A DNA stretch of 64,000 bases from a virus (IMGVR_UViG_3300029705_000055:1-64000); one strand, 5' to 3'; shown: positions 20,133-41,690, counted from the stretch's first letter. Numbers and translations: made by a program. The notes: a model not told the origin generated them from the sequence alone.

Positions 20133-23100
20133 TTACGTAAGATTTTTAGTTAAAGCGACTCTCGCTTTTATGGACTTAACAAATGCATCAGCATCAAACG
20201 AACTATCTGCAGACACATTCATAGTAAGATTGTTAATGTTGAAAGATTCATCACAGAGAGGTGCAGATCCAGACACACCATTACGCAGAGATATACCGCC
20301 CTCGACAGCCCTAAGGAGATTGGGAGCTATTTCTCCCAACGCCCAGAGATTCGAGGTGATATCCGCAGGGAGGATGCCGGAGTGTGCGGGGAGCGCGGTG
20401 AGCGTTCCCGAAGGAGTAATAATTGCTTCTGTACCAAATTCATTAAGAAGCGCAGTAGCGCCTGCAAAATTGGTTGTTCCCAAAGCGTTCCGAACGAGAG
20501 GGACTTCGGGCTTACCCCAGAACGGAGAAGGAGAAGAAAAAATGGTATTGATTCCCATTTCGTTACCCCAAACTACACTTGACTAAGAACTTCCCTCTGA
20601 GCTTTTGCTGAGTGCATAGAAAGCTCCGTCGTGGTAAAGGGCGCTCCGACCATCCCCATGCTAGAACAAAAGATCTTCGACCCCTCGCTCTTGCAAAAAG
20701 GCGGCGAGATCTTCCGCCGACTCATATAAACCTATATCCTCGCCATAGGCTTTGCTTATAAATTGAGCGAAAGAACCGCCCCAAGTGCCTGCTTTTGCAT
20801 CAGACCAATTGCCCGATTTTTTATTTCTGGGGTCTTGCATAAACCTAATGTTTTTGTCGGGGTCAAGAATTTCGCTTACAATACTCTTTTGCGCAGAACT
20901 ATAATCTGTAACATAGCTTTGGCTACCCGAGGGGGTATTAACCGAATAAGAATATTTAGGAGTGTACATATCCTAAGTGGCAGCCTTTAACGCCTCAAGA
21001 GAATTAACTCCCGTTCCAGCACTTTGGTGGAAATCAGAGCCAATATATCCTTTGCTTTCTGCGATCGAATAAATTCTTTGATACTTTTCGAGCGCAGAGT
21101 TTAATTCAGAGGCCGTCTTATTTTTACCCAATAGTTTTGTATAGTCTTTCCAGGCATTAGTTAAATCTGCTAAAGTCTGTTCTCTATCTTCCAGAGAGGC
21201 TTCAACCACCTACTCACTGATCTTATCAACACCAACTTCAATACCATCCAGCAAAAAGACAGCCTAGGATAGCAAACTAGCTGCGGTGCCGCCGCCATCT
21301 GTAAGTGTGTTATTAAAATCTTCTGAGAAGCCTTCCACGATTGCCTACACGGCGCCGCGGCCATTTGATGAAAACTCACCAAAGAAAACTTCTGTTAGTT
21401 CTTGCTTTTGTTCTTCGGTGCGAACATCCCACAAGGTTTTCCATTTATCGGCAATGTATGCAATCGCAGAAATCTATTTGTCAATTTTAGAAATTTGTTT
21501 TTCTACAGACAGGTCTTCAATTTCCTTTTGGGCTTCTGCGATCTTATTTTGATCGGCTTCGTATACCCAGCCAACCCCTGCACGGTAAATGCGTCGCTTA
21601 TCGTTCATTGCCTCTTCTAATCTGACGCGCGCCTTTAAAAGCTTCAGCTCATATTCACGTTGCTTATTAATATTTTCTAACATATTGCGCTGCTCAGTTA
21701 AAGCGTCAACCTGTTTCTGGTAAGCGCTGGCAATAAACTCAGTGGCGTTTTTCAACTATTCGCGGTACAAATCTGCGACTAAAGTATCGCCACTAGCATG
21801 CTAAAACGCCTCAATAAGAACTTTATTAATTTCTTTAGAAGTGTCTGTCCCCATTAAATATTTCAGCAAGCTCGCCATTGTTGTTGCCCCCGACTGCTGA
21901 AGCGCATTATCAATATCTGCGTCTGTGAGTTCGGTTTTTTGCATTTTTCTCAAACTGGCAACATAGGAAAAAATACCCGGTTTAAACACTTTGTCGTAAT
22001 GGTCACCGCTTGCCGCATATTGATTCCATTGCTCCTTGAGTTCTTGGTTATTAAGCTGCCTAAGTTGCGTCATGATTTCCTACATGACGCGCGGTGTGTC
22101 GGACATATAAGCAATAAGATCAGGATATTGTTGAACAATTTTATTCATCCAGCCAGAAATGCTTTCCGTACTCGAGGCCATGGTATTTAATAACGAAGAG
22201 AAGGCGCTCGTAGAATCAATTAATTCTTGGGTGCTCTTTAATAAATCTGCCAGGGTTAATTCTCCAAGCTTATCAATAAACTAGGGTAGATTACTTACGG
22301 TTGTTCCAATGGCAGAAGCAAAACTCTCCAGAATTTTTTTATCAAACTAATCCTTTGGATTTAGTTTTTCTAACGCCTCTTTAAGTTTATATGCTTCACC
22401 GCTAAGCACCGCTGCAATTTCCTCATCGGTCTTAAGTACGCGCTCTGCGTATTTCAAGAACCCTTCACTTAAATCACCATTTTCATATCTCATTGAATAT
22501 CCCGCAAGACCGCCGGATTTCTCAACTTCTTCGGCGAGCGTACGATAAATTTTACCTACACCCAGACGTTTTAATTCAACGACATTTAAATCTGTTAAAT
22601 AAGCATTGCGCCCAGCGGACATTGTTTGGGCTGTCAAGAGAGCCTCTTCAACCAACATTTTGTTGTCTTCATCGCGAAGCGTCCACATATATTGCTGGTA
22701 ATCTTTGAGGGCTCTAGCCATTTCCTCCGTAGCCGCTAACTGCTATTGCGCGTCCTCTCGAGCCTAATCGTTACCTGTTTCAATAATTCTTTTCATGAGC
22801 TCGGCTTGTTCAGATAAAATAGTCAATTTATCCGAGACCAGGGATCTCTCCCACTCCTAAGCTCTCTGTTGTTTATAGTTATTTGTTATAGCAGAACCAA
22901 CAGCCGACCCAGCACCAAAACCAGCAACCAGGCTGCCGCCCAACAAGGCACCCCCGATAAGCTTTCCAAGGAGCCCCGGCCACGCCGCTAATAATATTGC
23001 TCCGGTAGTTGCTAACGCCCCCGCGGTCCCTATACCAGCAGCTGTACCGCCGCCCCAGGCCATTGCAGATTCTCGGTTGGTTATACCCAAATCGGTAAAC

Positions 23101-26100
23101 CCATCCAAAGCGGAATTATATTTTAACTAGGCGTTTCCAACTTTTTGCTCTTGATTATAAATATCTTCTGTCCGAGCAATTTTTTCTTGTTGATGCAACG
23201 CTTTAACTTGCGCAATCTCTAGTTTACGGGCTGCCTCTCTGCGTCCTTCTCCAACCTCATTTTTAAACGACTAAACAAGTTTATAGAGGTCATCGTCACC
23301 GTTGTTAATTTTACCCAATTCTTCTTTGAAAACTTTTCTAGTAGAATCATTTTCAGATTTATAAATATCGGACAAAAATTCATCAGCCAACGCATCTGCT
23401 CGACGAATATCATCAATACTTTTAAGAGTGGATAAACTTTTAATTTCCGAGACCTAAGAGCTGATATGCTCTAAAACATTAGTGGTTTCCTGTGCGTCAG
23501 CAGAAAGATTATGGATGTCATCTCGTATTTTATCAATGGACCGCGCAACCCAGTTGCCGACAAGGTCGCCCAAGAACCCACCGATAAAAGGTATCGCGGC
23601 ACTCAGAGCCGCGTCTACACTTCGAGAAACACTTTTGGCCTCTTCGGAAGACGTAACAGTATTTCCCCTTGAGTCGGTATGTGTTTGTCCACCCGTCATA
23701 TAGGCAGAGGCCCCCGCCATAGTTTGGTTAATGGCCATAGTAGCCAGCAACGCGCCCTTGGATGCCCACAAAGATCCGCCAGAAGCCCCTTCGCCGCCTT
23801 GCTGTTTAAGGGCCAGCTGTTTCTCTTCCTCTTGGGTTTCTTGCGCGCCTAGCCGTGCAGTGTTTTCTTTGTGCTGTTCTTCCAGAACGCTGTCAAACGT
23901 TATTTGTTCGCCGGTTTCTTCCATGGCGGCCTGAGTTTCTTGAGCGGACTTTGCTGTATTTTCTGCTGCTTTTTCAAACTCTTTGGCAGATTTAAACACG
24001 CGCTCCCCTCTGGCAGCCACATAGGCGTCGGTCGCGTCGCGACGCTTATCGCCAATAAAGAAACTTCTCAGACTCCGAAGTCTGCCTTTTTCCTCAAGCC
24101 CTTTCAATCCCTTTTGGAGCCAGGATTGCCCAGAGAGTGCCCTATAATTACTCATTCCAGCGATCAGACCGGGCATCCACTTAAGAATCTTAGGAAGAGC
24201 ATCGACAATTTCCGCAAGAAGATTAATCCCTTCGGTTAACAATCCAGCCACGCCGCTGTTACTAGCAATGTTTTCAACCGCCGCAGTAAGCCGCTTTTGT
24301 GCCGCTTGATATGATTCTTGGTATGCGGTATATTTTGTCTCGGCTGTGCCGCGAGAGTTACGAGACACCTCAAGAAGCTCCTCGTACTTTGTCCAGTTAG
24401 ACAAAAGTGTAACAACGCTTTCCTGCTGCCTAATACCCGCAAGTGCGGTCGCAATAGCTTTCTTGGAAACATTGTCGAGAGCGTCCCATTTTTCAGCCAC
24501 TTCTGCTAAGACTTCATCGAAATCTTTGAAAGTTAAGCTCGAACTACGAATTGAAATCCCTATTTTATTCAGAACTTTTTCAACATCGTTTACCGCATCG
24601 CCCTCTTCAGCAGAAGCGAGATTCATTTTATTATACGCGCCAGCTTTAACATTACCATAACGAGAAATAATCGTCTTCATACTGGTACCAACTTGCGTAC
24701 CAGAAGCTTGCGTAACGTCAGCAATGGTTGCAACATATGCAGCCGCCTGGTCCATATCAACACCAGCCAAGCTACCGATGTTTGCGAACTAAGCAAGACC
24801 CTCGGCAATATCACCGGCAGAAGTTGCTGCTTTAAGGTCAATTGCAGTCAGCTTATCCACGATATCCATAGATTCGGACGCCTGCATTTTGAATCCCTTT
24901 AACGCACTCGTTACTTTTGTATTTAATAAGGGTCGCTACTCCTTATTGTGCAAAGCACCTCGCGCTTTCGCGTGAGAATTGACTATATCATCATCCCAAA
25001 ATTAACACCGGGATGTCACTTGCTTCCATCTCGCTCGAGATGTACTCCATAAAGGATAGTCGATGGGGCTGGGTCTTATAAAGACCCCTGCCTGCTGATT
25101 GCCCAATCCCCGTTACTTTACTTCTGACTACACCTCGCGGTGTCAGTTAGCGAACGAGGCTCTAAGGGGTTCCCAGCATATCAAGTGATTTATTTTTCTA
25201 TATATTACTATATAGCGGACCTAATTTGTTAAGTCCTTGGTTGCCGCAGTGGCGTCTATCATACCTAACTTACTCAGATACAAGGAGGCCGTAACCAGGT
25301 CTTGAATCTGGGCAGTTTGGTAGCCCTGCCTTTGCCATTCGAGTGCAGAAGCCGAAACTTCTTGCGTTGTCGCGCCAATCTTTTGACCCAAGTTCGAATA
25401 CTCGGTCATTAATCTGCGCGTATCTTCTTTAGTACCGTTGGTAACAATACGCAAATTCGTTAAAGTACCATCAAGGGCTTTTGCGTTTTGTACTAATAAT
25501 TTAATACCTTGACGCAGCTTCGCCATAATATTCATTGCGGCACGGCCAACAACAAATCGAGAGAAATAATTAGAGAACTATCCAGAGATATCGCCCAACA
25601 AACCGCCATCAGCCGTCTGCGCCTTTTCGGCGCGCTCGCGAACCCGCGTATCAAGACGCGCGCGTCTTTGCCCCGTGGCTAAATATCCACCCGCGCCCGT
25701 CCAATTGGGATCGTTTTTATGCGCTTCTGCTAAAAGATCAACCGTTTCTTGCGCAATGTTACGCAACTCTTCAAGATCTGCTTTTTCTTGCTCAAGGATA
25801 TCTCGTTTATCTTGGTTTGTTTCTTTTACAAGCGCCGCATCGACCGAATTAATACGAGACTCATATCCATATAAATCTTTATATGCAGAGTACGCGCTCT
25901 GTCTATCACTACGTATACGCTTATATTCGTCGATTTTTGCTCGTCTTCCAGCAAGCGCACCCTCAACCACTAAACGATCACTAACGGTGCTGCCTTCTTT
26001 TTCGAGCTTCGAAATCAACGTGTCCATATCCGCGCTAGTAGCGGTTGCATCGGTCTCTCTAATCAGTTGTAATAATTTCGAAAGCCGCTTTTCAATATGC

Positions 26101-29100
26101 TCTGCTAAATAACTATCGACTTCTTTAAGGTCCTCTGTTATTTTGGCTTGCTCTTCTGGAGAAAGAGCCTTAGAGCCCTGTTTAGCCGCCAAATCCACGC
26201 GTTTTAAAGAATACTTTTCTTTGTCACCCAGAAGCTCTCGGTATTCCTCTATATATTGCTTTGCAAGACCCTCTTTATTAAGCGGGGTATCTCTTCCCTC
26301 GTCTTCTAAACTCTTACTTTCAGCTATGAGAGCTAAAAGCTCTTCTTCTTTAAACTTAGGAATCTCAGTACCACCAAAGCTATCAAGAAGACGGGAGGTC
26401 TATTCTGCATAGAGATCCGGGGTATAGGTCTTAGACCTTCCCACGTTATCTGTAACTGTAATAGCACCAGAGAAATAATTATTACCGCCAATAAGAGCAT
26501 TCATCAGGGCAGCGGCTCGCTGTTTTTTGGCAGACTGCTCTTGTTTGGTTCCTGAATTTATGTGTTTATTATAAAGCTGTGCAACTTTTTGCGCGTTGGC
26601 TTTTTGCCCGGTGTATCCGTGGCCAAGTGCAAAATTTGTTAAGAAATCTTCTGCAGAAGTTGCTCCCGATGCTTCCAATGCTTGTTCAAGCAGCTGAAGA
26701 TTCGAAATTTCGTTTAAAACCTGTGCAATATCGTCTGCGTGTAAATCTGTCGAGCCCCTGGTTTTATAGTCGCTAACCGTAAAGTGCTTTTTACCCTCTT
26801 CGTCAACCACGAAAGACACCAGGTCGGCTATGGAGGCCTCTTCTTTCCCGAACGCAACTCCGGGGATGGAGATTTCAGCCAGCTTAGTCGCGTTTGGACC
26901 AAGGTGTTCGTCCATGCGCTGTGCCATGGCCGTTCCAATCCCCATCCTAGAAGCCATCTCTGCGCGGGCAGCTTGCGCATAATCAAACGAACCATCAGGG
27001 TTGATGGTTATTCCGCGAATTTCCGCAAGAGTGGGATCTAAGGTTAAGGCTCCAAGCGCGTAAAGCTTTTCATAGTTATGAAGAATGTTCTCTTCAGCTT
27101 CACGCTGGGCTTTATTGAGTTTTCCTTTAGAATTAGCAAGCTCTGCAAAATGATGTGCAGCCGTGCCTCCAAGCATTGATATAGAAGTAGCAAATTCATC
27201 TTTATGCGTATCAATAAATTTTTCGCGCGCCACAGGGTCATTAATATCAAGTTTTTCCAGTTGATCAAAAAAGCTCGATTTTGTGCGTGCGTAAATAAAA
27301 TTTTTCGTGCCTAAAAATGGCCGTCGCTTTGCTTCTGTGGTTGACGTAAAACCATGTGAGGAACTTAAAATTTTCCCCGCAGTGGCTAAAGCAGACTTTT
27401 CACCGGCATTGCCCACTTCTGAATATTGACGGCCACCAAAAATATCATCAGGAGAAAATTTATATTCAGAATTCTTATAACGATTCTGAATCATAACGCC
27501 TAATGAGGTACCGCCATGGGATGTTCGATACGCCTCGTTGGCTTTAAGAATATCTTTTATAATAGCGTCTTCAGTTAAACCGGACACACCTTCTACAAAC
27601 TGATCTGTGATACCGAGTTCCGCACGTGCATCCATGAGGTTCGCCATAACCTCTCCAGAGAACATGTCGTCCTTCTCGCCAACGATACCCAAAAGCCGCA
27701 TTGTGGCAAAGAATCTTTCCAACCCCTCTCGAGTATCGAAAGTGCCCGATTGAGTCGCTTGATAATAAAGACTATTTAACAAATCGGCGGGATTGTGCCC
27801 CTTTAACTTTTTGGTGCTAACATTTTTAATGTTAATACCAGTCTAATATGACTACCCAATTAAGTTAATTAACTGGCGTACACCCCCGAGGGACCCGTCT
27901 GCTCCTAAGTCACCAGTAAGCTCCCTTAGAAGCTTTCCGCTTCGCCCGGCCCATTCGGCGCCCACATTGGCGTACATCGCCTTCATGAGCTATTCGGCCT
28001 TATTTAAGGGGTCTTCTAATTCGGAAACTTTGCCGATATCTAAAGAAGATCCTTTACTCTCGGCCTTTCTCGCTTGCTCTTGCCGTTTTGCTAATTTTGT
28101 ATAATATTTTTGTCCGGCAGCAATGGCACCACTTAGATCACCGTTTAATGCGGCATTGTAAATTGCAAGACGGTCGCCATCGAAATCCCCATGCATAGTT
28201 CTTAGCAAATCCGGGTTAATGAGCGCGTTGCCCTCTTCTATTGAATCCAATATAATAGCGCCGGCCTACACAGAGTCGTCTACCATTTTTAAGATGGGGT
28301 ATCTCATCATTAAAAACTGTCCGCTGATAGCCCCTTTGTATTTTTTAGACATTGGATTAATGGCCTATTTAATGGCGCCAATCATTTGTTCAGATGTCAG
28401 CCCCTTCTTTGGGCCGTGCTTAAACAAATCTTTATAAAGGGACTTTAATTCATCGGGCGCCAACTCCGTTAGCATAGTTTCAACATCTTTAGAGCTTAAT
28501 GCTAAGGAGGGCATTGCCCCAGATTTAACACCATATATATCAGATAGGTTATTAAAAACCTCGGTGTTCATCGCTTGCGCTAAGAAATAACCGCCGCTTT
28601 TTTCTTCTAAAGTATGGTACTCTTTATATATTGATCCCTTTTTTTCTTTATTGATAGAATCAAGAATATTATTATAAGACTATGCAATTTTCTCGCCCGC
28701 GCGTTCCTGCTTTTTCCTTTGTTCGGGAGCGCTCATCGTGGTGAGATCAAACTTAGATAACTCTGAAATTGTGCGGAGCTATCGAATGGTCTCTGCGCCA
28801 ATCGCATCTGTAACCGCGTATGTCTCTCCGCCAACCGAATACTCGGGCCCCAATTCAAACACGCCACCGCGCACATGGTAACCAGTATGCTCAGTTCCGC
28901 TGGAATCAGAGGCGTAGACGGGAATTACATTACCACTACTGTCTGTGGCGTAAAATACAAAGGGTACCTCATCAGGAGACCGGATCCCCTTCTCTAAGTA
29001 CTTATCTTTGTTGCGATTAAATTCTTCGGTTTGAGCCTCACGAATGCGGCGAAGCGCCGCGGCGCCGCTCTAAGCAGAGATGCCCCCGCGGCCGCTTTCC

Positions 29101-31691
29101 TAATCAAATTCAATATCTCCGAATCCCCCAGCGGGAACTAACTCTTCAACATTAAATTGCAGCCCAAGCTCGTTTGCCCTTTGTTTACTGGTTTTTTCGT
29201 TCTCTTGCTGGAAGGTCGCAAAAAGAGAATTCTTCGTATTAACCATATAGCGTCTTTTGAAGTCTTCTTCTTTCTTTGCCAGGGCTCCCTCCAGCTCTTT
29301 TGCTTTATTTTCCCAAGGGGTCAAATCTAATTTGGGAGCAAGCTTCCGCATGTTTTCAATACTAGCTTTGAAACTATAAAGGTCCAGTCTGTCGTATTTT
29401 TTTCTTGAAGCATTGGGACCTGTTCCTTGGTAACGGTCGATTGAGCTCATCTCCGCCCCCTGCGAGAGAGGGAGGGGGCGTTCAGCCCATTGTAATATTT
29501 CTTCCCCGGGGTCTCCCACCTTTCGCACGGCATTGCCTTTCAGCCCATAAGCCTCTCCCATAACTTTACCAAGTTTCAGAAGTACACCTGTGATACCGCC
29601 TTCAGTATCAATCATATGCTGTAAGGCAACCTCGTTAATATCAAGACCCGCGCCCTCAACAAATTTCAGAACACCAGGAAGTTGCCTGTTAATTTCAGCA
29701 ATTATTTGAGAATTACTATGCCCCGTTCGCTCCAGCTGACCGATGGTGCTTTCTAGCATTCCATTGAATGTATCGCGAGTTTTTAATTTATGCTCGCCGC
29801 GTCCAATCACCATTTTAAGATTGCCGTTTTCATCAAAAACGTCTTTCTCTGAATATCCATGCTTGACAAAAGCTAATCCCAATAACTATTCAGTTATATC
29901 GCTTATCACGGAACGGAAATCGGACATTTTACCGCCGCGGCTAGTGAATGTCTTGTTACGATTTTTCTCGGTTATATCTATTCCAAGCACAGCCGAAGTC
30001 GGATCATCTTTGATAACAAGTTTACTGCTATTTTTAAGTTTTAAAATATGGCGTACCGCCTCAGTACGAAGCTCGTCTTTTCGGTTGTCTAACACCTTTT
30101 TTAAGGCCTGCTCTCGAGTCGCTTCGTTTTTATACTCGTCTGTATGCCCTATTGCTTTAATTGCCAGTTTCTAGATCTCTTCTTCAACAACATCTCTAGC
30201 AATTTCTTTACTATACTGCATTGAAACCGCAAAATCTTCAGCGATAGAACGAGCATAAACAGATGCGTCGGCTTCTACGCCTTTGAGCATATCCATTCTG
30301 ATTGTGTTTAACTCTATTCGTTCTTTTTTAGTAGAAGCCGCGTATAGCTGATCAAATTTAGCTTTAGAGAGAGATCCTCTAACAGCCTTGCCAAATTTTT
30401 CTTTATATTTACCTTTTAATATATCTTGCCCCGCAGCAACAATGTCAGCGTCAGAAATCGTACCTGCAAGATAAGACCGAGAAATGTGTTTACCCGCAGC
30501 AAGATCAGCTGCAGAATAAAGCTTCCTTTGCTCCGCCGTTGTGATTGTCGAATATTTACCGGCTATACTTTTATCCGCTACGGCCCCCCTAGAAGAAGTA
30601 TACTTTTGTAAGGCTTTTGTTGTTTCTTTATTAAAGTCTTTTACATAAGATCTTAAATTAGCTAAAACTTTTCTATCTGTTAAGCCCGCCAAAAACGCAG
30701 TGGGGACAGGAGGTTGTGCGAAAGACATTAGACCGGGGGTGCCTTCTTTCTTGCCACCCTGGACGGGGCCGAGTCCGTACACCAAATTAAAAGTTTTTTC
30801 TAAATCGCCCTTCCAAAGATTAGTATAGATCCACGGATGAGCCCTTTTCACATATTGTCCGAAATCTTTCGTTGAAGCAAAGCCATTGGATTCAAAAAAG
30901 ACATTCTGGAGCTCTTTTGCCAACGCAGCATCGTCTCTGGGCGCGCCATATTTACCCAGTTTGCTTTTATAATTATTTGCCATGGTCTTGAAAAGCCAGG
31001 ACAAATGCACCTGCATACCCATGGCAGCTACGCCCTCGCGCCGAAGCCCGTTAATATTCCCAATAGAGGTGGCTTTTTGAAACTGCTCTTTTTGGGTTCT
31101 CGAGGCAGCCGAGGGGCTTTCGTGTGTAATACCACGCAACGTTTGGTTCAGTTGACGCATAACCAGCTTAGCTTTTTTATTATAATCATCAACCTGTTTA
31201 TCCATCCAGACCATTCGACTGGCTAGTTCATTCGCGGCGGCATCAATGGCAAGTGCCCTTGCGCTGGCAAGCCCGATTTCTTTCCCTTGGTTTTGAACAA
31301 AAAACAAGGCATCCACTGACGGGAGATTATTCTGAATCGTTAAACCAGTCCCGCTGCTAGGTAAAATTTCAAGGCTGGGAATATTCTTCTCGTCAATTGC
31401 TTTGCGAGCTTCGGGGTTAGAAGGAAGAAAGGAAATTTTAAATCCCGCTTTTTCATCGCCGGTGATTTGTATGTCTCCGAACCCTGCTTGCCCCATAACA
31501 CCAGCAAGGTGTTTTATACTTTTTTCGGTAGAATGAATATCTGTACCAACCTTTAATGCATTCTTAAAAACTTTTTCTTGACTGTTAGCCTGAGTGCCCG
31601 ATTTTATAAAACGCTATGCTAAAATTTGGTCATTCAAAAATCCATCGCTAAGTGCGTTGAACCAGGAATTTATATTAGTCCAGCTACCCAA
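20133..31691 (-). CDS. Giant RNA polymerase-nuclease-tape measure fusion (code 15, spliced: exons 31691-25232 and 24913-20133; ~3746 aa)
   Basis: TTG start after AAAGGAGGGG; single frame with about 33 in-frame TAGs by manual count; RNAP motifs at ~29950-29740 and 28304-28173; nuclease motifs at 27170-26720; TP901-type tape-measure core at ~25535-24300; NALGT...NEFGTE C-terminus. Confidence 0.85.
24914..25231 (-). ncRNA. Group I self-splicing intron (IA-like, no internal ORF), 318 nt
   Basis: P1 GGACU|UAA-CAAA-UUAGGUCC with U-G at the splice site; P3 UCACUUG/CAAGUGA; P4 UGCUG/CAGCA; P7 GACUAU/AUAGUC with P7.1/P7.2; P9 GAAA loop; terminal G. Splicing restores KDL-TSALKGF. Confidence 0.92.
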
Positions 31692-31796
31692 TTATATCCC
31701 CTCCTTTATATATATAGATATGGTGCCATATATAGACACCTGTTTATTCAAAAAGGACAAACCACATGTCCTATTCATATTTTTTAACATTAACAT
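31692..31796 (-). CDS. Possible 34-aa leader ORF abutting the giant gene's TTG start
   Basis: AAAGGAGAG RBS then ATG; its TAA is immediately followed by the in-frame TTG. Confidence 0.3.
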   Translation of the reverse strand: MLMLKNMNRTCGLSFLNKQVSIYGTISIYIKEGI

Positions 31797-31829
31797 ATGC
31801 TCTCTCCTTTATGAGTAAAATATGAAAAT

Positions 31830-31857
31830 CCCCCGACCAATTTTTCATGGTCGGGGG
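31830..31857 (-). terminator. Intrinsic terminator
   Basis: CCCCGACCA/TGGTCGGGG stem followed by a U-rich tract on the minus strand. Confidence 0.65.
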
Positions 31858-31897
31858 TGCCTCAGTGTATAATTATTCAAATAATATGCAAATTAAT

Positions 31898-32377: not shown

Positions 32378-32453
32378 TGGAGCCGCCAGAGGGAATCAAA
32401 CCCACGCCCTGATAATTACAAATCATCTGCTCTATCTGCTGAGCTATGGCGGC
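32378..32453 (-). tRNA. tRNA-Thr(UGU) with encoded CCA
   Basis: GCCGCCA acceptor stem, D arm, anticodon arm GATGA-TT-TGT-AA-TTATC; non-canonical T loop TTTGATT. Confidence 0.85.
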
Positions 32454-37257: not shown

Positions 37258-37800
37258 TCATTTGGGCGCTGTTTTGTCATACCCAATGATATATCGCGTT
37301 AAATCATGCAAAGGATTTTTACGGAACTTGTAAGTAGCATTTACAAGCTACCCGTCTTTCTTTTCAAAATAAAGCTGGTTGCTAAAGGGAAAGGGGAGCG
37401 GGCCGCAGCTTTCACGACTCCACGTTTTTGCGTCCACTTTGGGCGCAATCCAACGCCCAATTTTATACAGGTCTATATATGGCAAGAGATCGATATCTAT
37501 TGAATCCATGCCACTATAAAAACCAACTTTCATATTGGAATGTGCGTGCACATAATTAGCAATACGTTTGATATCTTCATGGTCGGCATCACCGCCCATA
37601 AGGCCAAATACAGTACAATAACAATGTGAATTAATTAAATTCTGAATCGCGTCATCGGTTAAATAAGATCCAACATCTAAACGAAGCCAGGGCTCAGAAC
37701 ACTCATCGCACATACCCGGGCAATTAGTAATATTAACACACACAGCGACCTCGTCTGGAAACTCCGAAAACGTCACCGCATGGTCATAATACTTAAGCAC
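37258..37800 (-). CDS. nrdG: Anaerobic RNR activating enzyme (radical SAM), code 15
   Basis: CPGMCDEC (CxxxCxxC), adjacent to nrdD; reads through TAG 37348 to TGA 37258. Confidence 0.85.
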
Positions 37801-39676
37801 GCTGCGCCCCCTCCGGGGAGGCATAATAGCGCTGTGCAGCCTCTTTCTGCCGCACCTCGCTAAAATTGGAAACTCGTTTTAGGTAGCCTATGATTCTGGT
37901 GGCATAATCAACATCCGTGCTTCCGCATTCAGAGCAACGATCATGCATATGTTTATCTATATGCCCGCAGCTATTACACACGGTGTTTGGAACATTAAAA
38001 GTAAAATAACTACACCCAACTTTTGCAGCGATATCCATTAGCTTACGATATTGTTCTTGTGAAAGATGCTCGTCGAGATTACAATGATAGGCCGAACCAC
38101 CATCAAGATTACCAATAAAATCTTCTCCGTGCAGGCACATTTTTTCTACGGGATCATAGGTTGGATCCTCAACAGGATAGAAATAAGAATTGTAACACAC
38201 ACGAGAATCAGGCACCCAATACCCATCCTCTTTGTCCCACTTGTAATGTTTGACTCCCACGGACTCACCCGGTATCATCTCGCAGTTAAACTTACAATGT
38301 TCTGCTCGATCTTTAGTGTTTAAATCTTTAATTGTACCAAGTATATCCCTGGCCAGCTGCTGATACTGTTTGTTGTCATGTTTTACACGGATTCCATTAT
38401 ACGCAGTGTCATTCTGCATACCTAAAAATTCAGCCGCCTCGACGAAGCCATTAAATCCACAAGTTAAATACTCATCGTCAAGGCTAATGAAGCCAGCCGA
38501 AAATACGGTGAGAATGCCCGCTTCAAAATCATCCCATAGTTTTCTATTCCAGGACATCAGATATTTGTGAAGCCTGTTGACGATAGGGACGAGGTAGTCC
38601 TTAAGCGGAATGGAATGACCGGAACGATACCAATCCTACACAATGCGGTTGAGGTTCAGAGTTATAACTCTCTTGGACCCGGTTTTGACCCCACCAGCAC
38701 CAAGAGTATAGCTGAAAACATTCGACTCAATTTTATTTTTAAGCCGACAGCACGAGCTTAACGCATCAGCGGAATCGCTATTATATAAGAAAAATGAATG
38801 TCCCTCTGCCCACATCTCGGCAGTAAAATCAGCCATTTCTTGATCTTTGTACTCTTTGGTTTCGGGGTCCCATAATAAATTCATGGTTTCCACGGGGAAA
38901 GTAAGAACTTCTCTTGTTCTTTCTTTATTAAACCATTTCATAAACATTTTCTATAATTCTTTTGTGGTCTCCCAACAAGGCTCGTCGCCGTCGGGGAAAA
39001 CAAAATCTCTAAAAATGCTTGCAAAATAATATTTATCGTAATAAGAAATGTTCGTAAAGGGAGACTAATAATTGCGACTGCCAGCGGGCTAATTAATAGA
39101 ATAAACAAATTGCTGGAACCAATCTTCTATTCTGTGCCTCAGCGCACCGTTGTCATCGTCTAAATGATCGGTGTAATCTTGACCGAAATCCAGTCTCAAA
39201 AAATGGTCCATATAAACTAGTGTTTCGGGTGCGGCGCAAGCGCCGGCAAGCTGACCCGCAACGAGGAAAATTAAATTAATTAAACCACCTATATAGCCGT
39301 TTGTATGCTTAGGTGGACCACTAGAGCCCCCTAAATCTTTCAGACCATTCAGCAAGAACGGATACAGAGAAATAGCAGCGCAATAGGGATACCCTCCGAG
39401 CGTACTTTCATCATTTGTGTAAATAGTATGGTGCTCAAGGTCTTTGATATACTGTTCTGCCAAATCTTCGCCAAAACATTTCTTTATGTATTCGTGTGCC
39501 ACGTAACGCTGCACGTCTATACCAAGTTTTTTAATTGATTCGGCCTACATGGTTGCGATGTTTTTTGTAGTCACATTGGCATTTTGGTCGTATTTTGCCC
39601 CTGTTGCAGCATTACTTGCTTTTTTATATTCATCAAAAAAATTAACAATTTCTGTTACACGATCTTTAGGTCTCAT
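37793..39676 (-). CDS. nrdD: Class III anaerobic ribonucleoside-triphosphate reductase (code 15, 627 aa)
   Basis: YPYC, N-Q-PAGSRNY-Q-SPFTN, SSCCRL, CxxC/CxxC Zn site and RIIGYL glycyl-radical loop; five TAGs. Confidence 0.93.
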
Positions 39677-39885
39677 ACCGCGCGCTGCCCCCTAATCCAA
39701 TCGAAGATTTCTTTACCAGATAAAAGGTTTCCTTCCACTTCGAGGACAGGAGTGTGTTGAAGCCCGCGGGCGATCATCGTGTCGAGGTCTGTGCAAGACT
39801 CGTATTCTACTTTTTCTTTTTTTAACATCATTTCAACGGCCTTGCACTGTGGACAAGTCAACGTATGATAAAAGATGACTTTCAT
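39673..39885 (-). CDS. Glutaredoxin/NrdH-like protein
   Basis: CPQC and TPVL motifs; ATGA-coupled to nrdD. Confidence 0.85.
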   Translation of the reverse strand: MKVIFYHTLTCPQCKAVEMMLKKEKVEYESCTDLDTMIARGLQHTPVLEVEGNLLSGKEIFDWIRGQRAV

Positions 39886-40673: not shown

Positions 40674-41690
40674 TCATTCTCCTTTCACATCGTCTGAACT
40701 TTGAGTTTTGAAGTTCATAAAGAACTCCCCAAGAATTTCTTCCGGGGGAATGTCTGAATATATTTTAATCATATCTGAGTTGGCCCAGCCAAAAATCTGT
40801 GTAATTACATCATCGGGCAACTTCTTGCGTTTTAACATGGTGCAAAAGAAGTGTCTGCTCGAGTGCGTGTAATAATCGATTTTAAAAATTTTTGATATAC
40901 GCAGAGCAAAATTATTAGCGGTCGATATTGTTGCGGGGTAATATTCGCCCTTCGATTTTGTAACGAAGAGAGCGTCCTCGGTAATACCGAGTTTCTTGCG
41001 TTCAGCAAGCCACGCATCCAAAAACGGCTAAAACAGCTCTTTGATAACATACTTTTTAATAAGCTTCCCTTGCTTACCCGCACCTTTAGCGCGAACCTCG
41101 GGGGTACAATACATATACCCGTTAAAGACCTCGCGCTCCGGGGTAAAGAAACTTACTTTCATTTGTAATAATTCTGCTTTGCGACTACCAGAAGCGCAGG
41201 CTAAAGCAAGATAGCAGGCCAACTGGTATTCTTTACGATCTAAAAGTCCCTATAACATTTCTTTCATACGCTCGTCTGCAATTACGGTCTTTTCACGAAC
41301 CGGAGCAATTTTAACAGCCTCAAGCGCACGAAGCTGATTGTGAAACTTAGGATAAAGATCCTCATAAAGCAGCTCAATCTCAGAGGATAAGCTGCTTAAG
41401 GCAGACTTAAGGGTGGAAATTCGGTTCGCACTCATACCGAGATCACGACACCACCCAAAATAATAAACAAAGTCTCTGCGTTTTAAATCAATAAAAAATT
41501 TATTCTCGTTTTCTTTGTAATTCCAGCAAAAAAACACTTTGAGCCACTCTTCATACTGGCTGATAGTTTGGGGGGACTTGTCATTGGATTTGCAATATTG
41601 GATAAAATCCTTAACGAGCCGCTTGTTCTCAGAAGACACGTTTTCCCAATCGCTGGTTAAATTTGTATTATAAACTGTAGTACGACTCAT
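40674..41690 (-). CDS. Tyrosine recombinase (XerC/integrase family), code 15, 338 aa
   Basis: SGSRKAE (R), AKG (K), HSSRH (HxxR), FGW, IKIY (Y); TAGs at 41250 and 41028. Confidence 0.9.

What the first reader, a model, noticed from the sequence alone, without database searches (positions are those of the whole stretch)
27840..31691. Two-barrel RNA polymerase fused to the N-terminus of the tape measure protein
Seen: with TAG read as Gln, the giant gene contains FLMMRYPILKMVDDSV-Q-AGAIILDSIEEGNALINPDLLRTMHGDFDGDRLAIY (RYP 28304-28296, DFDGD 28187-28173). About 590 codons earlier it has NKTFTSRGGK...SVISDI...VFDENGNLKMVI...TRDTFNGMLESTIG. Established: these parallel the beta' catalytic barrel (NRAPTLHRLGIQAF...HP...NADFDGDQMAV) and the beta barrel (GDKMAGRHGNKGVISKI...PYDENG..VDIVL...SR...GQILE.HLG), with the same 8-residue lysine spacing. 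A tail-tape-fused virion RNAP has precedent in Thermus phage P23-45 (gp96), but I know of none in a recoded Firmicute phage. Inference: a single-chain RNAP is packaged with the tape measure and injected to transcribe the first genes. Standard annotation cuts it into many fragments and would miss it.
Basis: partly seen in the sequence, partly recalled or inferred. Interest (0 to 1): 0.97.

Follow-up and report, generated by a model that had tools for sequence, protein, structure and literature searches.

The report
Candidate RNA polymerase fused to tape measure
The giant tail "ruler" gene of a stop-codon-recoded gut phage carries, ahead of the ruler part, a conserved active-site module of cell-type RNA polymerases, so the phage probably injects its own transcription enzyme, as shown so far only for Thermus phages; the fold could not be confirmed here.

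Summary
With TAG read as Gln, 31691..25143(-) is one open frame. RYP and DFDGD lie exactly where stated. Across a group I intron (25231..24914) the frame continues into a PF10145 tape measure, giving about 3,746 aa.

About 20 relatives, most unrecoded, have the same N-terminal module. In the full-length ones (about 4,000 aa) it is fused to the tape measure.

R1130-x-P1132, N/H-P-x7-G and D1169/D1171/D1173 are invariant in 22/22 sequences. Profile-profile comparison with a Pfam-validated single-chain beta/beta' RNAP family matches this stretch in register (82%, P=1e-5). A proven RNAP, gp64, scores worse in the same test. A protein-language-model search on a homologue also points to the Rpb1 active-site domain.

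Not shown:
- The second barrel. R585, D591 and R593 are, also 8 apart.
- The fold. Two AlphaFold models reached only pLDDT 54-55 and gave no structural match.

The P23-45 gp96 precedent is real (PMC10770324). The phage also encodes a TAG-poor YonO-type RNAP, so it has two polymerases, as P23-45 does. An invariant RecB-like nuclease motif lies between polymerase module and ruler.

This scan has noted tape-measure-RNAP candidates in at least 56 other genomes. Verdict: partly supported, a new variant of a known kind.

The parts
20133..31691 (-). Whole tape measure gene: exon 1 31691..25232, group I intron 25231..24914, exon 2 24913..20133. The spliced product is about 3,746 aa with 33 in-frame TAG codons read as Gln (14 in exon 1, 19 in exon 2).
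   Evidence: TAG=Q frames. Junction ...KDLT|SALKGF... fits the homologue consensus ATATKDLTSAMKGFK. Homologues are single ORFs of 3,900-4,200 aa with PF10145.
31700..31706 (-). Ribosome-binding site AAGGAGG, 8 nt before the TTG start at 31691.
   Evidence: Read directly from the sequence. The N-terminus aligns with the starts of the homologues.
29712..29957 (-). Candidate second (beta-like) barrel, residues 579-660. Conserved R585 (21/22; 29939..29937), D591 (29921..29919) and R593 (29915..29913), both 22/22. Assignment not demonstrated.
   Evidence: These are the only (near-)invariant charged residues between residues 480 and 1120. K580 and K588 vary. hhalign against RNAP barrel-B profiles is not significant, and the same is true between proven RNAP families. 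The Atlas gave no usable hit.
28137..28634 (-). beta'-type catalytic barrel (DPBB-A), about residues 1020-1185. R1130-Y-P1132 at 28304..28296, N1159-P, G1168, D1169-F-D-G-D1173 at 28187..28173.
   Evidence: R1130, P1132, D1139, G1154, D1169, D1171 and D1173 are invariant in 22/22. hhalign against the fused beta/beta' RNAP family gives Prob 82%, P=1e-5, in register. Against gp96+TSP4 it gives P=5e-4, in register. Controls are, the Atlas result.
27819..27965 (-). Conserved stretch after the barrel, residues 1243-1291. Consensus N-x-G-A-K-G-A-G-I-Y-G and L-Y-Q-E-G-I-N-I-K-N. The invariant Q1283 is a TAG codon (27845..27843). Possible bridge helix and trigger-loop start; this is inference only.
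   Evidence: G1249, G1252, Q1283, I1286 and K1289 are invariant; Y1282 is 21/22. The Q-x-x-[ILM]-x-x-[KF]-[NH] spacing resembles the fused RNAP family's TQs.LQaKH. The hhalign match is not significant (P=0.22).
26697..27179 (-). RecB/PD-(D/E)XK-like nuclease motif set, residues 1505-1665: G-x-x-x-H1513-x-x-x-E1517, E1606, D1623, D1641-Y-K1643, Q1657.
   Evidence: Invariant or 21/22 across 22 sequences. Pfam gives only weak hits: PDDEXK_1 E=0.0056 in relative L007 and DUF2800 E=0.77 in the window.
24914..25231 (-). ORF-less group I intron that splits the tape measure core domain.
   Evidence: Rfam RF00028, 76.4 bits, E=1.2e-17, at 24959..25240. Boundaries come from protein homology, a U before the 5' splice site and a terminal G. 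The intron is present in the 97% variant contig.
24389..25439 (-). Tape measure core (PF10145 PhageMin_Tail) spanning the intron.
   Evidence: PF10145 E=6.9e-19, profile positions 61-201, in exon-2 residues 14-173. phrog_4211 and others, 'tail length tape measure protein', E=1.4e-35. The end of exon 1 is the most conserved block of the family.

Best explanation
The gene encodes one polyprotein of about 3,746 aa. Its first ~1,500 residues appear to form a very divergent single-chain polymerase of the two-barrel (cellular RNAP) class. A RecB-like nuclease module follows, then a conventional tape measure.

Shown: the polypeptide is continuous after TAG read-through and intron splicing; it carries a tape measure domain; and a beta'-type active-site motif set is absolutely conserved and matches a bona fide RNAP family.

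Inferred: a partner barrel around R585/D591/R593 completes the active site. The protein sits in the tail lumen, is ejected ahead of the DNA and transcribes the first genes at the entry pore, as proposed for P23-45 gp96. The nearly TAG-free YonO-type RNAP gene (genome 72487..75375) would be made early under the host's standard code and would take over later transcription. The TAG-rich tape measure gene can be translated only late, once the phage suppressor tRNA is present, so the virion enzyme is made only for the next round of infection.
For: - One frame with TAG=Q; tRNA-CTA in the genome; invariant Q at a TAG codon.
- Group I intron with a junction that restores the tape measure consensus.
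- PF10145 and PHROG tape measure hits.
- HMMER against 1.84 billion proteins finds 8 clusters, 6 of them proteins of about 4,000 aa. The 14 proteins include 12 full-length ones (3,897-4,219 aa), all with PF10145.
- R-x-P ... [NH]P-x7-G-D-x-D-G-D is invariant in 22/22. It meets the published two-barrel filter [RK]xPx{20,100}DxDxD and has the same N/H-to-Asp spacing as gp96 and the L012 RNAP.
- hhalign against the 94-member fused beta/beta' family, whose members hit PF00562 and PF00623: Prob 82%, P=1e-5. It is the top and only hit along 2,150 residues. Thirty column shuffles gave P>=0.031.
- Calibration: proven gp64 scores only P=0.016 and YonO-type P=0.014 against the same family.
- ESM Atlas on homologue P0009: score 0.90 with 175 shared features to a PF00623 cluster, and 10/10 structure rows are RNAP beta'.
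- Second RNAP: P0020 hits Pfam RdRP (5e-11) and SPbeta YonO (1e-28). It is kept at 62-73% identity in both sufficiently complete relatives.
- Late genes are TAG-rich and the early blocks nearly TAG-free.
Against: - No Pfam, PHROG or PDB sequence match for the N-terminal 2,100 residues.
- Two AlphaFold2 models are poor exactly at the barrel (pLDDT 53.7 and 55.2), and structure searches return only noise.
- Most of the profile signal comes from the GDxDGD motif. With both profiles cut before it, P is 0.03; the reversed profile scores 0.0058.
- The second barrel has no statistical support.
- The bridge-helix and trigger-loop assignment is not significant.
- SPbeta-type phages are thought to use the host RNAP for early genes, so a virion RNAP is not obviously needed.
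- A tyrosine-recombinase-like gene hints at a temperate lifestyle.
- There are no virion, expression or activity data.
Confidence: 0.6

Rival explanations
1. The module keeps a beta'-type barrel but is not a self-sufficient transcriptase. It could be a half-enzyme that needs a partner barrel in trans. It could be a two-barrel enzyme with another template or product, such as PolD-like DNA synthesis, priming or RNA-templated synthesis. Or it could be a DNA-gripping or translocating device that, with the adjacent RecB-like nuclease, processes or pulls in the genome end during ejection.
For: Only barrel A is supported. No barrel-B signal was found. An invariant PD-(D/E)XK motif set follows directly in the same chain, which gp96 is not reported to have. 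The genome already has a complete YonO-type RNAP.
Against: All three Asp, the R-x-P and R585/D591/R593 are invariant at 20-30% overall identity, which fits a complete active site under selection. Barrel B is equally undetectable between proven RNAP families. The only characterised tape-measure-fused two-barrel enzyme is a DNA-dependent RNAP.
Confidence: 0.2
2. It is not a polymerase. GD(F/M/Y)DGD is a conserved metal- or Ca-binding loop in an otherwise unrelated N-terminal tape measure domain, for example a structural or envelope-acting one. The likeness to RNAP would then be motif convergence.
For: The fold is unconfirmed. Similarity outside the motif is marginal (P=0.03), and the near-palindromic motif alone gives P=0.0058 on the reversed profile. 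D-x-D-G-D strings occur by chance elsewhere in this genome. The looser published filter hits 9 frames against 2.1 expected.
Against: Three separate elements (R-x-P, N/H-P and G-D-x-D-G-D) recur with RNAP spacing and are invariant. The strict pattern was seen 0 times in 200 shuffles. The Atlas searches, which do not rest on alignment, return the Rpb1 active-site domain. The architecture parallels gp96.
Confidence: 0.15
3. It is an annotation artefact. The TAGs are true stops and the stretch holds several unrelated short genes or pseudogene debris.
For: Under table 11 the region splits into many fragments. No RNA data are available.
Against: Unrecoded homologues are colinear single ORFs. The genome has a tRNA-CTA. 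TAG falls in invariant-Q columns. The DNA is identical in independent runs, and the variants show transition-rich, frame-preserving change.
Confidence: 0.02

Closest known systems
Thermus phage P23-45 gp96 (also P74-26, G20c, TSP4): tape-measure-fused virion RNAP (Chaban et al. 2024, PMC10770324)
   Same: A giant tape measure whose N-terminal part carries R-x-P ... N-x8-G/V-DFDGD. The R-to-Asp spacing is nearly the same (38 versus 39 residues). A second, non-virion single-chain RNAP is encoded elsewhere in the genome. Overall similarity to other RNAPs is too low for ordinary searches.
   Different: There is no tblastn or HMMER similarity. hhalign gives only P=5e-4 over about 51 columns, so common origin of the fusion is not shown. 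Here DFDGD is at residue 1169, against 779 in gp96. The candidate barrel B lies about 580 residues upstream, against roughly 200 in gp96. A RecB-like nuclease module is present. No metallopeptidase domain was found. The gene has a group I intron and TAG recoding. The partner RNAP is YonO-type, not gp64-type. The host is probably a gut Bacillota member, not Thermus.
Single-chain fused beta/beta' phage RNAPs of 1,800-2,600 aa (family of L012:1882-7491, P0021-P0115), which hit PF00562 and PF00623
   Same: This is the best profile match: WRDPvL...vaINP...GDFDGD against nR.PTIk...IN..La..kGDMDGDR, Prob 82%, P=1e-5. Both are large virus-encoded single chains.
   Different: Those proteins reach the Pfam cut-offs for both barrels; the window's protein reaches none. 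In L012 the gene lies between a head protease and a helicase, not in a tape measure.
YonO of Bacillus phage SPbeta (QDE-1/RdRP-like two-barrel RNAP)
   Same: The same genome encodes a true YonO homologue, P0020 (Pfam RdRP 5e-11; tblastn to yonO 1e-28). The genome size of 133 kb is SPbeta-like.
   Different: The tape measure module itself is not YonO-like. The YonO-family profile against it gives P=0.14 over 13 columns.
crAss-like phage phi14:2 gp66 and N4 virion RNAPs
   Same: These are RNAPs embedded in very large virion proteins and ejected to transcribe the first genes (as cited).
   Different: Those are not tape measure fusions, and N4's enzyme is T7-like. No sequence comparison with them was made here.

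Membership tests
Two-barrel (cellular-type) RNA polymerase superfamily | Metal-binding D-x-D-G-D loop, conserved in relatives | tested here: met
   D1169, D1171 and D1173 are invariant in 22/22. One member has DNDAD, which keeps D-x-D-x-D.
Two-barrel (cellular-type) RNA polymerase superfamily | [RK]-x-P 20-100 residues before the Asp triad (filter used by Chaban et al.) | tested here: met
   R1130-x-P1132 lies 36 residues upstream and is invariant. The filter alone is weak: 9 hits in this genome against 2.1 expected.
Two-barrel (cellular-type) RNA polymerase superfamily | Profile-level homology of barrel A to an accepted RNAP family | tested here: met
   hhalign Prob 82%, P=1e-5, in register and unique along the protein. 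Shuffle controls gave P>=0.031. The signal rests largely on the motif.
Two-barrel (cellular-type) RNA polymerase superfamily | Second (beta-like) barrel with conserved basic residues facing the Asp loop | tested here: inconclusive
   R585, D591 and R593 are conserved, but no profile or Atlas support was found. The same test also fails between proven RNAP families.
Two-barrel (cellular-type) RNA polymerase superfamily | Double-psi beta-barrel fold | tested here: inconclusive
   AlphaFold2 pLDDT was 53.7 and 55.2 and below 50 at the motif. Foldseek and VIA returned nothing meaningful.
Two-barrel (cellular-type) RNA polymerase superfamily | Template-dependent RNA synthesis | not testable with these tools
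   Needs biochemistry.
Pfam RNA_pol_Rpb1_2 (PF00623) / RNA_pol_Rpb2_6 (PF00562) | Score above the gathering cut-off | tested here: not met
   No hit at E<=1 for P0001, P0009, P0010 or the L006 ORF. I therefore do not file it under these Pfam families. According to the paper, gp96 likewise shows no detectable similarity to known RNAPs outside the motif.
gp96-type tape-measure-fused virion RNAP | Polymerase module and tape measure in one polypeptide | tested here: met
   Met at the level of architecture.
gp96-type tape-measure-fused virion RNAP | Sequence homology to gp96 beyond the active-site motif | tested here: not met
   tblastn with gp96 finds only Thermus phages. hhalign gives P=5e-4 and is restricted to barrel A.
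gp96-type tape-measure-fused virion RNAP | Presence in virions and rifampicin-resistant pre-early transcription | not testable with these tools
   Uncultured phage; no RNA runs are listed.
Phage tail tape measure protein (PF10145) | PhageMin_Tail core domain in the tail module | tested here: met
   PF10145 E=6.9e-19. PHROG tape measure families match and tail proteins lie downstream.
Group I intron (RF00028) | Covariance-model score above the gathering cut-off, and splice sites that restore the frame | tested here: met
   76.4 bits against a cut-off of 50. Junction shown.
PD-(D/E)XK (RecB/Cas4-like) nuclease | Motifs G..H...E / E / D / D-x-K / Q in order and conserved | tested here: inconclusive
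   The motifs are invariant. Pfam hits are only sub-threshold: PDDEXK_1 0.0056 and DUF2800 0.77. No fold was obtained.
YonO/QDE-1-type RNAP (for the tape measure module) | Profile similarity to the YonO family | tested here: not met
   P=0.14 over 13 columns. The separate gene P0020 is the YonO homologue.

The most novel reading that the evidence does not exclude
A lineage of ~130-155 kb SPbeta-like phages, probably of gut Bacillota, has put a complete, highly divergent RNAP together with a RecB-type nuclease in front of the tape measure, possibly independently of Thermus phages. The ejected protein would transcribe and process the entering genome end at the pore. Together with a YonO-type enzyme it would make the phage largely independent of host RNAP. 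Stop-codon recoding plus an intron would restrict its synthesis to the late phase. Tape-measure-delivered polymerases would then be a general strategy rather than a Thermus curiosity.
Probability: 0.3. Interest if true: 0.8.

Novelty: new variant of a known kind. Interest (0 to 1): 0.6.

Why it matters
The only published tape-measure-RNAP fusion is in Thermus phages. A full-text search for 'tape measure', 'RNA polymerase' and 'double-psi' returned only that work as relevant. Its survey lists gp96 relatives only in Thermus phages.

An active enzyme here would extend virion-delivered two-barrel RNAPs to large phages of ruminant and other animal guts. It would show that ordinary annotation misses them for three reasons: recoding, introns and extreme divergence. 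It would also offer a second system, with a nuclease attached, for studying how a folded enzyme travels through a tail tube and couples transcription to DNA entry.

It also gives a concrete test of the idea that TAG recoding times the synthesis of late proteins.

Tried and rejected
- Pfam, PHROG and PDB phmmer/profile searches of the N-terminal part gave nothing. tblastn in INPHARED phages gave nothing.
- hhalign of the whole-length profile against single gp96 or gp64 sequences gave nothing useful.
- AlphaFold2 was run twice, on residues 421-1520 and 1000-1360. Both models were poor. Foldseek PDB and VIA wide returned only helical noise, so no fold statement is made.
- ESM Atlas on the barrel-B region of P0011 gave no usable hit.
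- Searching shorter homologues of P0003 found none.
- hhalign for barrel B and for the bridge helix/trigger loop was not significant.
- YonO-family profile against the tape measure module: no specific relation. A recent duplication of the phage's own YonO is therefore rejected.
- Exact repeated k-mers as promoter candidates: none stood out.
- The suppressor tRNA is not a close paralogue of the phage tRNA-Gln. Its amino-acid identity therefore rests on the alignment columns.
- No RNA holder is listed among public runs, so expression and splicing could not be examined.

Full report
**What is there.** The window is the first 64 kb of a 133,443-bp IMG/VR virus record estimated 96% complete. Under table 11 the region 25-32 kb holds only fragments. 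With TAG=Gln it becomes one 2,182-codon frame, 31691..25143 on the minus strand, followed by a 1,606-codon frame, 24953..20133. A strong AAGGAGG site lies 8 nt before the TTG start. Rfam finds a group I intron between the two frames (76.4 bits). Joining ...KDLT (exon 1 ends at 25232) to SALKGF... (exon 2 starts at 24913) restores the homologue consensus ATATKDLTSAMKGFK. It respects a U before the 5' splice site and a terminal G. Exon 2 opens with PF10145 positions 61-201 and PHROG tape-measure families, and tail proteins lie downstream. The gene is therefore a tape measure of about 3,746 aa with an N-terminal extension of about 2,080 residues.

**Recoding is real.** The genome carries a tRNA with anticodon CTA. 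TAG 1283 falls in a column that is Q in all homologues, and TAG 1234 in one that is mostly Q. The residue mix at TAG columns matches that at ordinary Gln columns. Independent animal-faeces runs hold identical DNA. A 97% bovine-gut variant spans the whole stretch in one contig, with transition-dominated differences and exonic indels that are in frame or compensated. Late structural genes (1-72 kb, minus strand) are TAG-rich, while the blocks at 72-106 kb and 107-133 kb are almost TAG-free.

RYP and DFDGD are at the stated coordinates. An exhaustive HMMER search of 1.84 billion representatives found only 8 clusters, 6 of them proteins of about 4,000 aa. A word-indexed search added more, and all 12 of the full-length ones (3,897-4,219 aa) carry PF10145. 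Five further loci came from viral and metagenome contigs, and one from a 130-kb contig binned with Clostridium sp. CAG:343. The fusion is therefore conserved and the family is rare.

Across 22 sequences at 20-34% identity the following residues are conserved:
- R585 (21/22), D591 and R593
- R1130, P1132, D1139, G1154, D1169, D1171 and D1173
- G1249, G1252, Y1282 (21/22), Q1283, I1286 and K1289
- H1513, E1517, E1606, D1623, D1641, K1643 and Q1657 (21/22)

**Is it an RNA polymerase?** Ordinary searches fail. The same is reported for gp96 itself.

A tblastn side-hit, L012, proved useful. Its 1,870-aa ORF reaches the Pfam cut-offs for both Rpb2_6 and Rpb1_2 and belongs to a family of 95 single-chain beta/beta' proteins. 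Results of the profile-profile comparisons:
- This tape measure family (residues 1090-1330) against that family's barrel A: Prob 82%, P=1e-5. R-x-P, I-N-P and G-D-x-D-G-D are superposed.
- Along all 2,150 N-terminal residues this is the only hit.
- Column shuffles gave P>=0.031. The reversed profile gave 0.0058 because the motif is nearly palindromic. Cutting both profiles before the motif left P=0.03, still in register. So the signal is real but motif-centred.
- Calibration against the same RNAP family: gp96+TSP4 gave P=1e-9, but the proven RNAP gp64 only 0.016 and the YonO family 0.014.
- gp96+TSP4 against this family gave P=5e-4, in register.

The spacing from the N/H of N/H-P to the residue before the first Asp is 9 in this protein, gp96 and L012. 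From memory, E. coli beta' has the same spacing.

An ESM Atlas search with the 415-aa homologue fragment P0009 returned a PF00623 cluster at 0.90 with 175 shared features. All ten structure rows were RNAP beta', although at TM 0.31-0.34. I take a beta'-type catalytic barrel as likely, at about 0.85.

**What could not be shown.** Two AlphaFold2 runs (pLDDT 53.7 and 55.2, below 50 at the motif) gave no usable fold. Foldseek and VIA returned noise.

The second barrel is unproven. R585, D591 and R593 are the only (near-)invariant charged residues between residues 480 and 1120. R585 and R593 are 8 residues apart, like the two conserved beta lysines as I recall them. However, hhalign and the Atlas are silent. 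The best, non-significant alignment pairs this motif with the acidic GYN-x-ED-like half of barrel B rather than with the lysine half. Barrel B is equally undetectable between proven families, except for gp96 against gp64. Absence of signal is therefore not evidence against it.

The stretch G-A-K-G-A-G-I-Y-G ... Y-Q-E-G-I-N-I-K-N could be the bridge helix and the start of the trigger loop. This rests on pattern only.

**Context.** Genome 72487..75375(+) encodes a 962-aa protein, P0020, with SDSDYDGD. It hits Pfam RdRP (5e-11) and SPbeta YonO (1e-28). It has one TAG, at codon 20, and opens the nearly TAG-free plus-strand block. It is kept at 62-73% identity in both sufficiently complete relatives. 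All its phage homologues with a named host infect Bacillota, and 13 of 400 genomes of the same class as the G001 assembly carry one. The phage thus has two polymerases, as P23-45 has gp96 and gp64. The tape measure module is not a YonO duplicate.

The residues 1505-1665 carry a complete, invariant RecB-type motif set (D-L-V ... D-Y-K-T) with only sub-threshold Pfam support.

**Mechanism proposed.** Shown: one translated chain holds a polymerase-like module, a nuclease-like module and a tape measure. Inferred from gp96: the chain lies in the tail, leaves first, forms or stays at the entry pore, and transcribes the first genes while the DNA enters. The YonO-type enzyme, translatable under the host's standard code, would then take over. 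The TAG-rich tape measure is made only late.

**Comparison and novelty.** This family shares the architecture and the active-site signature with gp96, but no wider homology. It differs in five ways: the nuclease, the intron, the recoding, a YonO-type partner and a probable Bacillota host. This scan has already noted tape-measure-RNAP candidates in at least 56 genomes. One of them is a roughly 4,010-aa spliced cattle-gut case whose fold also could not be confirmed. I rate this a new variant of a known kind, with interest 0.6.

Noticed in passing
L002:8487-11375 (+), = genome 72487..75375, outside the window: A 962-aa YonO/QDE-1-type single-chain RNAP (SDSDYDGD; Pfam RdRP 5e-11; 27% identical to SPbeta yonO). 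It is the first large gene of the nearly TAG-free plus-strand block. It is conserved at 62-73% identity in two related phage genomes. It ends in a (TD)n repeat encoded by ACACAG repeats.
   Followed up: yes
L004:6262-6335 (-), = genome 110262..110335: tRNA with anticodon CTA (ARAGORN calls it 'Pyl'), near tRNA-Gln(TTG) and tRNA-Pro. It has a U1/C72 mismatch and G73. It is not a close paralogue of the phage tRNA-Gln.
   Followed up: partly
window 26697-27179 (-): A complete RecB/PD-(D/E)XK-like motif set (H1513, E1517, E1606, D1623, D1641-Y-K1643, Q1657), conserved in the 22 family members, lies between the polymerase-like module and the tape measure. Pfam support is only sub-threshold.
   Followed up: partly
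L006:10471-11775: In a 154.7-kb relative the tape measure core is interrupted at a different place (about PF10145 position 139) by an insert that encodes an HNH homing endonuclease. The tape measure resumes at L006:11776. The tape measure core seems to be a hot spot for introns in this family.
   Followed up: partly
L012:1891-7494 (+): A 119-kb contig of a Ruminococcus MAG encodes a 1,867-aa single-chain beta/beta' RNAP (PF00562 + PF00623). It lies between a head maturation protease and a helicase. It belongs to a family of at least 95 clusters found in metagenomes and in some actinobacterial genomes.
   Followed up: partly
window 40674-41690 (-) and 37793-39700 (-): A tyrosine-recombinase/integrase-like gene (phrog_1, 1e-23) and an anaerobic ribonucleotide reductase NrdD (PF13597, 2e-88) sit inside the structural-gene block. 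The integrase hints at a temperate, SPbeta-like lifestyle.
   Followed up: no
window 31815-31860 (-) and 32378-32453 (-): A GC-rich hairpin followed by a T-run (terminator-like) and a tRNA-Thr(TGT) lie just upstream of the tape measure gene. The gene may therefore have its own promoter.
   Followed up: no
window 22900-23070 (-), exon-2 residues about 640-695: A glycine-zipper-like hydrophobic segment of the tape measure gave the only PDB profile hit: crAss-like phage cargo protein gp45, 7qog_M, E=0.0011. This is probably a compositional match.
   Followed up: no
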